A program made the position numbers and the translations under genes. Shown here piece after piece: positions 59,815-62,004 of a DNA stretch of 64,000 nucleotides. Position 1 is the first letter of the stretch. Each line of letters starts with the position of its first letter. The stretch is taken from assembly GCA_002774875.1 (NCBI GenBank), contig PCYM01000006.1:17434-81433 (forward strand). Reading direction: 5' to 3'. The notes under the pieces were generated by a model. The model was not told the DNA's origin, did not search any database, and worked only from the letters and a program-made list of their open reading frames with translations. This DNA is from Candidatus Uhrbacteria bacterium CG10_big_fil_rev_8_21_14_0_10_50_16. GTDB taxonomy: Bacteria; Patescibacteriota; Patescibacteriia; UBA9934; UBA11717.

Positions 59815-60387
59815 TTACTTGAGGAGATCCTTGAGGACCTGTCCCCAATCCTTGCCACCTTCTTCGGTGAGCGGCGCATGTACGTACTGGACCCGCGAGC
59901 CGTTGACTTTGAAGCTTGGGGCGGACGCCGGCTCTTCGAAGAGTCTGCGTCCGATGAGACCCAACGCACTTGCCATGGCCGTTCCGTGATGCCCGGCGTC
60001 CGTAACCATTGCCACGTAAGGGACGGCAACATAGCCGGCAAACATTGCCAGAATGAGCCCAAGCGGCGCCGTTTCGCCAGGACGAACCTCCTCGTAACTG
60101 AACTTCTCTACGGGAAGCTCCATGTCCGTAAGGACCACGTCGAAGCTCGGTGGTGCAAACTGCTGCAGGAGTTCAAAGTCCACCTGCTCGTAGTTCGGAC
60201 TCTGTCTTGTCAGACCTGCCTCGCGCTTCGCTTCCAGGTAGTGATCCCACGATCCCGTGTACGTCAGGAGAGAGATAGCCTCCTTGAAGGACGAGGCAAT
60301 CGTGAGCTCATGCTCGGCCAGCGTCTGCTTTGCGGACTCCCGGTGTCGGGGGCTGTCGTCAATAACCAGAATGCGAAGTGATTCCAT
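59815..60387 (-). CDS. CheY-like receiver (REC) domain protein with an uncharacterised C-terminal domain
   Basis: Start placed at MESLRILVIDDSPRHRE with RBS GGAGG; DVVLTDMELP is the phospho-acceptor region; ~58% GC; no DNA-binding output recognised. Confidence 0.7.
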   Translation of the reverse strand: MESLRILVIDDSPRHRESAKQTLAEHELTIASSFKEAISLLTYTGSWDHYLEAKREAGLTRQSPNYEQVDFELLQQFAPPSFDVVLTDMELPVEKFSYEEVRPGETAPLGLILAMFAGYVAVPYVAMVTDAGHHGTAMASALGLIGRRLFEEPASAPSFKVNGSRVQYVHAPLTEEGGKDWGQVLKDLLK

Positions 60388-60588
60388 TTGTTCCTCCGTG
60401 CCACTGTGTGGCAGTTGCGGGATCATTCCCTAAGACCAGAGGCTTGGCTGTTGCTTTGCTTGATCTTGCTTACGTTATACCAGAAAAGTCTCTCCTTGTC
60501 AATGGTTGATCAACGCAATAATAAGCCAACATTAGCCAACAAAGAATAATGTGTTGACGAAATCTCAACAACATGCTATCCTGGGAAC

Positions 60589-61383
60589 ATGGCAGAAGAC
60601 ACAAAAACCTTAGAAACACTGCTCTTTCAGCTAGGATTTAGTAAAAATGAGGCAGAAGTGTATTTAGGCGTGCAAAAACACGGAAAGATTACTCCTGCTC
60701 AATTAGCAGAAGTTACGGGAATAAACCGTACAACAGTTTATTCTCTCGCAAAGGAACTCATTAAAAGGGGAGTGATTGCAGAGGATTTAGGTCAAAAGCA
60801 GCGTTTTCTCATTGCTTCGAGCGCAGATAGCCTTGCCGGAACAGTTCGACGTAAGCAAAAAGAACTTGATAAAGAGAAGGACGTCGTGAATCAAGCCATG
60901 GCGGCAGTGCAAGATATCTCGCGACAGGCTCAGTATGCCGTACCAAAGATCCAATTTATTACGGAAGAAAAATTAGAAGATTTTCTTTACAGTCGTTCGC
61001 CTGAATGGGATAGAAGCATCATGGAAACCGACGGATTATATTTGGGATTCCAAGAACAGGCGCTCGCGGAACAATATGCGGATTGGATTGAGTGGTATTG
61101 GGGTCGTAGCCCAAAAGGTATGAAGTTTAATCTTTTGAGCAATGATTCAGAGGCAGAGAAGCGTGTGGCTATGAGCACGATTCCGGATCGCAAAATGACA
61201 TTTTGGAAAGAGAATATCAAATTCTCAGCTACGACGTGGGTCATGGGGGAATATGTGGTGATGTTTGTTCTCTCCTCCTCTCCGCAATACTTGGTAGAGA
61301 TTAAAGATGCGCGATTTGCGGAGAACCAACGTGCATTGTTTAAAGCGATATTAGAAGAATTGATCGTTAAACAGAATAAATAA
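60589..61383 (+). CDS. TrmB-family transcriptional regulator
   Basis: N-terminal winged HTH LGFSKNEAEVYLGVQKHGKITPAQLAEVTGINRTTVYSLAKELIKRGVI; C-terminal TrmB-type sensor domain; AT-rich (~41% GC). Confidence 0.8.
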   Translation: MAEDTKTLETLLFQLGFSKNEAEVYLGVQKHGKITPAQLAEVTGINRTTVYSLAKELIKRGVIAEDLGQKQRFLIASSADSLAGTVRRKQKELDKEKDVVNQAMAAVQDISRQAQYAVPKIQFITEEKLEDFLYSRSPEWDRSIMETDGLYLGFQEQALAEQYADWIEWYWGRSPKGMKFNLLSNDSEAEKRVAMSTIPDRKMTFWKENIKFSATTWVMGEYVVMFVLSSSPQYLVEIKDARFAENQRALFKAILEELIVKQNK

Positions 61384-62004
61384 AAGAAGGCGGCAACCAC
61401 GAGGGCGCCACCGGGAAGGAAGTAGGGGTCCGGGGAGATGAAAATCGATCGCTTGTATGGGGTGTGAGCTAGCCTGACCACACAAGAAACCGTCACTGTA
61501 TCCGTACACGGAAGAGAGAGGCAGAATCCTCGCCAATTCGAGCTCGCCTTTAGGTGCGACTCGTCTCTCCGTTCCGGTAGAGGGAACAGCGTGTTTGTCA
61601 TTCGCCCCCGGCCCCACGTAAACTGTACGCCCGTTGGTGCATTTGTAAAGGATCTTTGGTGGATAAATAGGAGAAAAAAGAACAGCGAGAGCCTTGGGGC
61701 TCCCGCGTTTCGGTAGGTGGTGGTGGACGAGTTATGATCTTGCTCCGTTTTTCTTGCGCCCGCACCGGGTCGGAGTCTGAGATCAACCTGCGGTCGACGT
61801 GTTCACACTCGTCCACCACCAAACAAGATTTTGTCATATGGGGCAGGGACTGTCAACGATCTTGCCAGGAGGGAGAATGAACGCTATTGTATATCTATGA
61901 AGAACACGGCAAAGAATATTGTTTACACCTATACGCGCCGTCCCTTCGGGGTACTACGACTGTTTTTTGTTTTAAACTAATCTCATGTTCCATTAGAGAT
62001 ATTT
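61384..62004. other. 620-bp ORF-free GC-rich region upstream of proS (possible structured RNA or leader)
   Basis: No credible ORF. Contains GGGAAGGAAGUAGGGGUCCGGGG, which resembles the SRP domain-IV motif CCGGAAGGAAGCAGCC. An 11-bp helix GGTGGACGAGT/ACTCGTCCACC (61722-61732 / 61807-61817) is followed by ACCA. A weak hairpin plus T-run lies before the proS ATG. Confidence 0.3.

What the first reader, a model, noticed from the sequence alone, without database searches (positions are those of the whole stretch)
59815..62004. Compositionally mixed segment between tRNA-Gly and proS: GC-rich REC-only protein, AT-rich TrmB regulator, 620-bp non-coding tail
The REC-domain gene (about 58% GC; no recognisable output domain; strong RBS) and the TrmB-family regulator (about 41% GC) both deviate, in opposite directions, from the ~49% backbone. 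They lie directly downstream of a tRNA cluster with an integration-scar-like repeat. A 620-bp ORF-free GC-rich stretch follows. I suggest accessory or acquired regulatory DNA.
Basis: partly seen in the sequence, partly recalled or inferred. Interest (0 to 1): 0.5.

Follow-up and report, generated by a model that had tools for sequence, protein, structure and literature searches.

The report
Receiver-like gene paired with TrmB regulator
The stretch between tRNA-Gly and proS in this Candidatus Uhrbacteria genome is a variable slot holding a two-gene regulatory cassette found in many uncultured bacteria: an atypical stand-alone receiver protein and a TrmB-type DNA-binding regulator, whose opposite GC contents recur wherever the pair occurs, so they are not a sign of two separate acquisitions.

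Summary
The receiver-like gene is 58.1% GC, the TrmB gene is 42.5% GC (lowest of 59 ORFs), and 621 bp follow with no convincing ORF. The window averages 49.3% GC.

Three corrections apply:
- The receiver gene starts at 60387 (190 aa, GGAGG 5 nt upstream).
- The last ~145 bp of the "tail" are the proS promoter and 5' UTR, shared with the sister genome.
- The tRNA-derived repeat belongs to tRNA-Leu, lies on the RuvB side, and does not bracket the segment.

"Accessory DNA" is supported by synteny. In the closest relative (ProS 87% identical) the flanks match, but 59701-~61860 is replaced by a restriction-type helicase gene.

The composition argument is not supported. Receiver-like homologs sit next to a TrmB-family gene in 19 of 30 loci, 13 of them immediately divergent. 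The receiver gene is more GC-rich than its partner in 17 of 18 pairs. Codon usage and tetranucleotides are unremarkable here.

I propose an autoregulated TrmBL2-like repressor coupled to a stand-alone receiver. The coupling is inferred, not shown.

The parts
59185..59385 (.). Duplicated 48-nt unit (59185-59232 and 59338-59385): terminator hairpin plus the last 27 nt of tRNA-Leu. It is context, not part of the cassette.
   Evidence: the repeat finder family D1, 96% identity. The sister locus L001 has one copy.
59366..59451 (-). tRNA-Leu(taa)
   Evidence: ARAGORN and Rfam.
59593..59667 (+). tRNA-Gly(gcc). Homology with the sister genome ends 33 bp downstream, at 59700 (left junction of the variable segment).
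59701..61860 (.). Variable segment, replaced in the sister genome L001 by L001:6857-~9860, which holds a helicase gene.
   Evidence: blastn of the window against L001; alignment of the proS upstream regions.
59815..60387 (-). Atypical stand-alone receiver (REC-fold) protein, 190 aa (PIR47475.1 / COV06_03400 as a 203-aa call). No output domain.
60388..60588 (.). Divergent intergenic region. It holds a promoter-like site for TrmB (TTGACG 60554-60559, TATCCT 60577-60582) and an operator-like palindrome block at 60546-60575 (ATAATGTGTTGAC-N6-TCAACAACATG).
   Evidence: Promoter scan. The block is conserved, with a variable spacer, in the TrmB orthologue loci L097 and L121.
60589..61383 (+). TrmB-family regulator with TrmBL2-type architecture (winged HTH, long helix, PLD-like C-terminal domain), 264 aa (PIR47476.1 / COV06_03405).
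   Evidence: Pfam TrmB E 2e-11. AF2 pLDDT 91.5. Foldseek full-length match to TrmBL2 5bpd/5bpi at E 1e-12 and to TrmB 3qph.
61384..61860 (.). Non-conserved spacer of 477 bp, 55% GC, with no known RNA family and no detectable gene remnant.
   Evidence: Rfam at E<=10 found nothing. tblastx, blastn and tblastn against all related loci and neighbour proteins found nothing.
61676..61856 (-). Candidate small RNA (unverified). Promoter-like TTGACA-17-CAAAAT at 61856-61828; a long stem with a 15-bp perfect core at 61718-61732 / 61807-61821; terminator-like hairpin at 61706-61685 followed by a T run.
   Evidence: MFE -66 kcal/mol, z -4.6. No comparative support. Terminator-like sites are not enriched in the region (3 found, 3.2 expected).
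61862..62004 (+). proS promoter-like site (61862-61890) and 5' UTR with a conserved hairpin at 61940-61954. Belongs to proS, not to the cassette.
   Evidence: alignment with L001:9868-10000.
62005..63231 (+). proS (prolyl-tRNA synthetase), the right flank.
   Evidence: Pfam tRNA-synt_2b and HGTP_anticodon; 87% identical in L001.

Best explanation
Window 59701-~61860 is a strain-variable slot between tRNA-Gly and the proS promoter. It is occupied by a self-contained two-gene regulatory cassette.

Gene 1 is a TrmBL2-type winged-helix regulator. I infer that it binds the palindrome over its own -35 and spacer (60546-60575), represses itself, and probably also controls the divergent gene.

Gene 2 is a 190-aa stand-alone receiver of an uncurated REC subfamily. 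It keeps the full phospho-acceptor set (D/E10, D11, D88 with the DxxxP motif, T129, K179). It adds an invariant HH(133-134) and W181 next to the active site.

I infer that the receiver is the signal-input half. It would be phosphorylated by an unlinked kinase or a small phosphodonor, or loaded with a metal at the His cluster. It would then act by protein contact, most plausibly on the TrmB partner, in the manner of a response regulator split into two genes.

The opposite GC contents are a recurrent property of this gene pair, not evidence of two donors. The 477-bp spacer after TrmB is lineage-specific filler that may carry a small antisense-oriented RNA. The last 145 bp are the proS promoter and leader.

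Shown: the anatomy, the folds, residue conservation, the gene pairing, the synteny break and the recurrent GC asymmetry. Inferred: autoregulation, phosphorylation and the receiver-TrmB interaction.
For: - **Synteny break.** It coincides with the ends of the segment. No REC or TrmB relative lies near proS in 80 loci.
- **Pairing.** All four looked-up homologs (28-34% identical) are divergent from a TrmB gene. Of 30 loci, 19 have a TrmB-like gene and 13 have one within 500 bp in divergent orientation. That is 19 of the 24 loci with at least 1 kb of upstream sequence. No other neighbour is conserved.
- **Background rate.** TrmB-like genes occur at 4 per 1.37 Mb of Patescibacteria DNA, giving binomial P of about 1e-24. 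This ignores the relatedness of the loci.
- **Family size.** 979 cluster representatives at E<=1e-10. No Pfam, NCBIfam or PADLOC family matches.
- **TrmB protein.** TrmBL2-like over its full length.
- **Operator-like palindrome.** Conserved in three TrmB orthologue loci while its spacer varies.
- **GC asymmetry.** Recurs in 17 of 18 pairs, and the receiver gene has the top GC3 in 6 of 11 loci.
Against: - There is no direct evidence of a receiver-TrmB interaction.
- Receiver and TrmB similarity matrices are not correlated (Mantel r 0.11, p 0.12).
- An orthologous TrmB (L121, 53% identical) has no receiver gene. Other close TrmB homologs face unrelated genes.
- At least 5 evaluable receiver-like loci lack a TrmB gene within 1-4 kb upstream.
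- No histidine-kinase motifs occur in the 64-kb window.
- The operator inference rests on three sequences.
- The direction of the gain or loss relative to L001 is unknown.
Confidence: 0.55

Rival explanations
1. The receiver-like gene is an independently exchanged GC-rich unit that was inserted, or swapped in by recombination, beside a resident TrmB gene. The two genes would then have different histories.
For: - L097 carries a TrmB 71% identical in protein (69.7% in DNA over window 60546-61358). Its receiver is only 38-44% identical, with no DNA similarity.
- L121 is related to L097 (Cys-rich neighbour 78% identical, tRNAs 91-96%). It has TrmB directly facing the Cys-rich gene, with no receiver gene between them.
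- There is no co-phylogeny.
- The receiver gene's GC3 is elevated relative to its host in most loci.
Against: - The GC offset is relative to each host (about +0.10 in hosts from 35% to 51% GC). It is not a common absolute value, as one donor pool would give.
- No repeats, integrase or mobile-element hallmarks flank the receiver gene.
- No plasmid, phage or viral hits were found.
- Codon-usage fit in the window is only mildly low, z -0.98.
- In L097 against L121 the 5' two-thirds of TrmB diverged as well, so the exchanged unit may include TrmB sequence.
Confidence: 0.25
2. The receiver-fold protein is not a signalling partner. It is simply a cargo gene, for example a metal-binding or catalytic protein using the His cluster. 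A local TrmB-type repressor regulates it, as such repressors regulate whatever lies divergent to them.
For: - TrmB orthologues face different divergent genes: a 580-aa Cys-rich protein, a 135-aa protein, and proteins of 229 and 260 aa with no Pfam hit.
- HH133-134, H26 and H15 are invariant or nearly so. Many members carry a DnaJ/anti-TRAP-type CxxCxGxG zinc ribbon, which suggests metal chemistry.
- No kinase is nearby.
Against: All five REC phospho-acceptor residues and the D+4 proline are kept in 47-48 of 48 members. This is hard to explain without phosphoryl chemistry of the receiver type. The enrichment of TrmB next to this one family, across very divergent TrmB subfamilies, suggests more than incidental regulation.
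Confidence: 0.2
3. The cassette is ancestral at this position. The sister genome UBA11717 replaced it with the helicase gene, so nothing was acquired in this genome.
For: - The segment as a whole has backbone GC (50.0% against 49.3%). TrmB has well-adapted codon usage.
- The L001 occupant is a restriction-type helicase with integrase-repeat units, a typical mobile or defence gene.
- The identical cassette is found in contigs from at least five samples.
Against: No other Uhrbacteria or Patescibacteria proS locus has the cassette. TrmB orthologues sit at a different genomic position, next to tRNA-Arg/His, in L097 and L121. Only one genome shares the flanks, so the direction of change is undetermined.
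Confidence: 0.3
4. The 477-bp spacer is the decayed remnant of a gene or of a mobile element lost from the cassette.
For: It is unusually long for a compact CPR genome and lies inside a variable slot.
Against: - No translated similarity to the L001 helicase or to any neighbour of related cassettes; best E 0.057, on the antisense strand of TrmB.
- No tblastx or blastn match in 124 loci other than identical copies from the same population.
- No Rfam, plasmid or phage match.
Confidence: 0.1

Closest known systems
Stand-alone (single-domain) response regulators such as CheY, DivK and MrrA
   Same: A single REC fold with no output domain. It has the conserved acidic pair, the phospho-acceptor Asp followed by Pro at +4, Thr/Ser and Lys. 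Such proteins act through protein contacts; this is established knowledge, see for example PMC5964349 and PMC8995066, listed.
   Different: - Fails the Pfam Response_reg threshold (19 bits against 30.2).
- Has a ~40-residue helical insertion between alpha2 and beta3 and a long beta3-alpha3 loop.
- Has invariant HH after the beta4 Thr and an invariant W in 'GKDWG'.
- In many members a DnaJ-type zinc ribbon is inserted before the Lys.
- No cognate kinase is nearby.
- Its conserved neighbour is a TrmB-type regulator.
TrmBL2 (Thermococcales), the TrmB-family protein without a sugar-binding subdomain; PDB 5bpd, 5bpi
   Same: The same length (264 aa) and architecture: N-terminal winged HTH, long coiled-coil helix and PLD-like C-terminal domain. 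Foldseek E 1e-12 over about 260 columns. The Pfam TrmB domain is above threshold.
   Different: Bacterial (CPR) rather than archaeal, at 16-18% identity. NCBIfam TrmBL2 and TrmB equivalog scores are far below their cut-offs (16-24 bits against 500-600). It appears to be a local regulator with a palindromic site at its own promoter, rather than a chromatin-like protein. That last point is inferred.
Classical response regulators with a winged-helix output (OmpR/PhoB type)
   Same: The proposed logic is the same: a receiver controls a winged-helix DNA-binding protein.
   Different: Here the receiver and the DNA-binding protein are separate, divergently transcribed genes. The DNA-binding part belongs to the TrmB family, not OmpR. 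The functional link is inferred from gene neighbourhood only.
tRNA-adjacent genomic islets (integration hot spots)
   Same: A variable occupant lies directly downstream of a tRNA gene. The sister genome has a defence-type gene in the same slot.
   Different: There is no integrase gene, no direct repeat of the tRNA-Gly 3' end, and no similarity to known plasmids, phages or viral contigs.

Membership tests
Response regulator receiver (REC) superfamily | (beta/alpha)5 CheY-like fold | tested here: met
Response regulator receiver (REC) superfamily | Active-site quintet (two acidic residues after beta1, Asp at the end of beta3, Thr/Ser at the end of beta4, Lys) and Pro at Asp+4 | tested here: met
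   In 48 family members: D/E10 48/48, D11 47/48, D88 47/48, T/S129 48/48, K179 48/48, P92 48/48.
Response regulator receiver (REC) superfamily | Match to Pfam PF00072 above the gathering score | tested here: not met
   19 bits against a cut-off of 30.2, with only residues 6-38 aligned. 22 of 48 members match at E<=0.01, and the best E-value among them is only 1.5e-5.
Response regulator receiver (REC) superfamily | Phosphorylation at the conserved Asp by a histidine kinase or small phosphodonor | not testable with these tools
   No kinase motifs in the window and no conserved kinase neighbour. Needs biochemistry.
TrmB family of transcriptional regulators | N-terminal TrmB-type winged HTH (PF01978) | tested here: met
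   E 2.1e-11, 44 bits against a cut-off of 25.6, residues 14-73.
TrmB family of transcriptional regulators | Coiled-coil dimerisation helix followed by a PLD-like effector-domain fold (TrmB/TrmBL2 architecture) | tested here: met
   AF2 pLDDT 91.5, helix 80-112 followed by an alpha/beta domain. Foldseek hits: TrmBL2 at E 1e-12 over the full length, TrmB 3qph at 6e-8, PLD-fold proteins at 3e-4.
TrmB family of transcriptional regulators | Sugar-binding C-terminal subdomain (TrmB sensu stricto, about 340 aa) | tested here: not met
   The protein is 264 aa, the length of TrmBL2. NCBIfam TrmB equivalogs score 20-24 bits against cut-offs of 500-600. It is therefore TrmBL2-like, not a sugar-sensing TrmB.
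tRNA-targeted integrative element | Integrase gene and a direct repeat of the tRNA 3' end bracketing the insert | tested here: not met
   No copy of the tRNA-Gly 3' end elsewhere in the window at up to 3 mismatches. No ORF other than the two genes in 59701-61860. The only tRNA-derived repeat belongs to tRNA-Leu and lies outside the segment.
Known anti-phage defence systems (PADLOC) | Significant match of either protein to a defence-system model | tested here: not met
   The receiver has no hits. TrmB has only weak HTH-level hits, E>=0.002.

The most novel reading that the evidence does not exclude
The receiver-like/TrmB pair is an undescribed split signalling module of uncultured (CPR-type) bacteria. 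A His-cluster-bearing stand-alone receiver senses phosphoryl or metal input and directly switches a TrmBL2-like DNA-binding protein. The receiver gene is a fast-evolving or laterally exchanged unit with systematically raised GC3 that repeatedly ends up beside TrmB genes.
Probability: 0.2. Interest if true: 0.6.

Novelty: new variant of a known kind. Interest (0 to 1): 0.42.

Why it matters
CPR/Patescibacteria genomes are small and poor in recognisable signal transduction. This receiver family has about a thousand 50%-identity clusters, keeps the whole phospho-acceptor site, and escapes the curated models I searched. It is tied to a TrmB-type regulator far more often than chance allows. That makes it a concrete, testable candidate for how these organisms sense and regulate.

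The result also carries a practical caution. A sharp GC contrast between two adjacent genes looks like two horizontal acquisitions. Here it is a recurrent property of the gene pair across hosts with 35-51% GC. The cause of the receiver gene's raised GC3 remains unexplained.

Tried and rejected
- **Known RNA in the 621-bp tail.** Rfam at gathering threshold over the whole window, and at E<=10 over 59100-62200, found only the two tRNAs. That includes no T-box before proS.
- **Tail as a pseudogene or element remnant.** tblastx and blastn against 94 loci, and tblastn with 12 neighbour proteins, found nothing significant.
- **Mobile-element origin.** No plasmid (72,556 records) or phage (50,697 records) similarity for 59701-61860. 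No receiver relative in viral contigs.
- **att-type repeat of tRNA-Gly.** None found.
- **Antisense ORF 59794-60381 (195 aa) as an overlapping gene.** Across 31 family genes the antisense frames are no more open than in synonymous-codon shuffles (median p 0.51). It is a by-product of high GC3.
- **Co-evolution of receiver and TrmB.** The Mantel test is not significant.
- **Histidine kinase or paralogs in the window.** None found by motif or HMM.
- **Hairpin at 61716-61823 as a repeated element.** It occurs only once in the window.
- **Searches that could not run.** The search for related loci with the broad alignments A4 and A1 failed for lack of a conserved stretch; the narrower A5 worked. 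The afdb50 fold library was unavailable.
- **Literature.** Two full-text searches found no description of a receiver-TrmB pairing. The library lacks most subscription journals.
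Full report
**Source and anatomy**

The window comes from a Candidatus Uhrbacteria (CPR/Patescibacteria) genome, the CG10_big_fil_rev groundwater MAG. The two genes are deposited as hypothetical proteins COV06_03400 and COV06_03405. The order of features is:
- RuvB (-)
- tRNA-Leu(taa) 59366-59451 (-)
- tRNA-Gly(gcc) 59593-59667 (+)
- receiver-like gene 59815-60387/60426 (-)
- TrmB-family gene 60589-61383 (+)
- 621 bp without a convincing ORF
- proS 62005-63231 (+)

**Check of the observation**

The GC values are essentially as reported: receiver gene 58.1% (GC3 0.68), TrmB 42.5% (GC3 0.41, the lowest GC of 59 ORFs), window 49.3%. 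The receiver gene most likely starts at the second ATG (60387). GGAGG lies 5 nt upstream, and every family member and the gene callers start there.

The deviations are real in GC but modest by other measures. By synonymous-codon likelihood the receiver gene is 7th worst of 46 (z -0.98) and TrmB is among the best fitting (z +1.27). Tetranucleotide distance of 600-bp windows across the segment lies at the 79th-94th percentile. The clearly deviant DNA of this window is 38385-41452. The variable segment as a whole has 50.0% GC.

**Synteny**

A scan of one genome per species found 80 proS loci. The closest is L001 (Uhrbacteria UBA11717, ProS 87% identical). L001 shares the D-Ala-D-Ala carboxypeptidase, bPH, small membrane protein, RuvB, tRNA-Leu and tRNA-Gly genes on the left. 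On the right it shares proS and the downstream genes.

Homology stops at window 59700 and, by blastn, resumes at 62004. A direct alignment shows that the proS promoter-like site (TTGCCA-17-TATTGT/TATCGT) and a leader hairpin (GTCCCTTCGGGGTAC / GTCCCTACGGGGTAC) are also shared. The right junction is therefore about 61860.

In between, L001 has an 820-aa ResIII/SF2 helicase with seven INT_rpt repeats. It is related to type I/IV restriction subunits and PbeA. Neither window gene has a relative near proS in any of the 80 loci. More distant Uhrbacteria have a tRNA pair 0.1-6 kb upstream of proS with varied content.

The segment is thus variable DNA at a tRNA-adjacent slot. With only one genome sharing the flanks, gain here and replacement there cannot be told apart.

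**The 'scar'**

The 48-nt repeat (59185-59232 / 59338-59385, 96% identical) duplicates the tRNA-Leu terminator hairpin plus the last 27 nt of tRNA-Leu. It is single-copy in L001 and lies on the RuvB side. It does not bracket the REC/TrmB segment. The tRNA-Gly 3' end has no second copy.

**The receiver-like protein**

A word-indexed search found only 9 relatives. An exhaustive profile search of 1.84 billion representatives found 1257 at E<=1e-3, 979 at E<=1e-10 and 275 at E<=1e-30. No Pfam, NCBIfam or PADLOC family covers them.

In 48 aligned members the receiver quintet is conserved: D/E10 48/48, D11 47/48, D88 47/48, T/S129 48/48, K179 48/48. P92 (Asp+4) is also in 48/48. Family-specific residues are added: H133 47/48, H134 48/48, H26 45/48, H15 38/48, W181 48/48. 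Many members carry a DnaJ/anti-TRAP-type CxxCxGxG zinc ribbon just before the 'GKDWG' motif. The window protein does not.

**The TrmB protein**

The Pfam TrmB domain is above threshold. The AF2 model has pLDDT 91.5. Foldseek gives full-length matches to TrmBL2 (E 1e-12) and TrmB (6e-8). The C-terminal domain also matches PLD-fold proteins. It is therefore a TrmBL2-type protein without the sugar-binding subdomain.

**The pairing**

All four relatives whose contigs I looked up (28-34% identical) are divergently transcribed from a 243-263-aa TrmB gene. I added 26 metagenome loci and scored ORFs with HMMs built from alignments A2 and A4.
- 19 of 30 loci have a TrmB-like gene.
- 13 are immediately divergent, with a gap under 500 bp.
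- 5 more are divergent within 3 kb.
- Six of the 11 loci without one have less than 1 kb of upstream sequence.

All-against-all clustering of the neighbours found no other conserved partner. The background is 4 TrmB-like genes in 1.37 Mb of Patescibacteria DNA. This gives a nominal binomial P of about 1e-24, not corrected for relatedness.

**Composition is a trait of the pair**

In 18 external pairs the receiver gene is more GC-rich than its TrmB partner in 17 (sign test p 7e-5). The difference is at least 6 points in 14 pairs, and GC3 differences reach +0.41. In loci of at least 5 kb the receiver gene has the highest GC3 of all ORFs in 6 of 11, against 1.6 expected (p 0.002). The offset is relative to each host, in hosts of 35-51% GC.

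The long antisense ORF over the receiver gene follows from this codon usage and is not an overlapping gene. I have no tested explanation for the raised GC3.

**Are the two genes co-inherited?**

The evidence is mixed.
- The window's TrmB has much closer relatives (71-34% identity, 51 hits) than the receiver has (at most 45%).
- L097 has a TrmB 71% identical (69.7% DNA identity over 60546-61358). Its receiver is only 38-44% identical, with no DNA similarity.
- L121 is related to L097: a shared Cys-rich 580-aa gene at 78% identity and shared tRNA-Arg/His. It has TrmB facing the Cys-rich gene directly, without a receiver gene.
- Other TrmB relatives face unrelated genes.
- Receiver and TrmB similarity matrices are uncorrelated (Mantel r 0.11, p 0.12). 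Power is low at these divergences.

The receiver gene is therefore either fast-evolving or exchanged separately from TrmB. TrmB can also exist without it.

**Cis elements**

The TrmB promoter-like site is TTGACG 60554-60559 and TATCCT 60577-60582. It is overlapped by the block ATAATGTGTTGAC-N6-TCAACAACATG (60546-60575). The arms of this block are conserved in L097, and in similar form in L121, while the spacer varies. This is what an autoregulatory operator would look like, but that reading is an inference from three sequences. The -10 ends 6 nt before the ATG in both the window and L097, which suggests a leaderless mRNA (also inferred).

**The tail**

61384-61860 (55% GC) has no Rfam match at E<=10. 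It has no similarity to any related locus or neighbour protein and no plasmid or phage match.

On the minus strand there are three features in order:
- a 10/12 promoter-like site (61856-61828);
- a long stem with a 15-bp perfect core (61718-61732 / 61807-61821), extended to about 19 bp in the fold, that begins where transcription would start;
- a terminator-like hairpin with a T run (61706-61685).

The 161-nt stretch folds at -66 kcal/mol (z -4.6). This is a candidate small RNA without any comparative support. All other copies are 100% identical sequences from the same population. Terminator-like sites are not enriched in the region (3 found, 3.2 expected).

**Conclusion**

The finding is a real, variable, tRNA-adjacent slot. 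What sits in it is a recurrent two-gene regulatory cassette, not a random mix. One gene encodes an atypical but apparently phosphorylation-competent stand-alone receiver. The other encodes a TrmBL2-like regulator.

The most likely mechanism has two parts: autoregulation by TrmB at its palindrome, and signal input through the receiver acting on TrmB or on other targets. Only the anatomy, folds, conservation, pairing and composition pattern are shown. The functional link is inferred from gene neighbourhood.

Two full-text searches found no prior description.

Noticed in passing
window 59185-59385: The tRNA-Leu 3' end (27 nt) plus its terminator hairpin is duplicated 153 bp apart (48 nt, 96% identical). 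The sister genome has one copy. The ~105 bp between the copies contain GGTTCAATTCCC (59322-59333), a T-arm-like fragment in the opposite orientation. It looks like the footprint of an old integration/excision or a partial tRNA duplication.
   Followed up: partly
window 38385-41452: This is the strongest compositional outlier of the window. Two ORFs (292 aa on the minus strand, 733 aa on the plus strand) have 63-67% GC and GC3 0.80-0.85. They have the worst codon-usage fit and no Pfam family. It is a better candidate for recently acquired DNA than the segment under study.
   Followed up: partly
window 61676-61856 (-): Candidate ~140-nt small RNA: promoter-like site, a long stem with a 15-bp perfect core closing a 74-nt domain, then a terminator-like hairpin. 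It is back-to-back with the proS promoter. Fold z-score is -4.6. It has no Rfam match and no homolog outside the same population.
   Followed up: partly
window 61862-62004 and L001:9868-10000: The proS promoter-like site and a ~110-nt leader with a small conserved hairpin (GTCCCTTCGGGGTAC, 61940-61954) are shared with the sister genome, although everything upstream differs. There is no T-box or other Rfam match.
   Followed up: partly
L001:7074-9536: The same slot in the sister genome holds an 820-aa ResIII/SF2 helicase with seven PF14882 'integrase repeat units'. It scores against type I/IV restriction and PbeA defence models.
   Followed up: partly
L097:4912-6607 and L121:3142-4893: A 580-aa Cys-rich protein without any Pfam family is the divergent neighbour of the orthologous TrmB in L121. 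In L097 it lies downstream of the receiver gene and is split into two ORFs by a stop or frameshift.
   Followed up: partly
window 60577-60591; L097 ~3795-3775 (-): The -10-like hexamer of the TrmB gene ends 6-7 nt before the ATG in both genomes, and there is no good Shine-Dalgarno sequence. This suggests a leaderless mRNA.
   Followed up: no
Receiver-like family (P0004-P0009 and others): Most family members carry a DnaJ/anti-TRAP-type CxxCxGxG zinc-ribbon insertion between beta5 and the invariant GKDWG motif. The window protein and its nearest relatives (P0002, P0003) lack it.
   Followed up: partly
window 57766-59211 (-): The mechanical RuvB ORF (481 aa, TTG start) is about 130 codons longer than the called gene (351 aa) and the L001 orthologue (350 aa). 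The N-terminal extension is an ORF-finder artefact.
   Followed up: no
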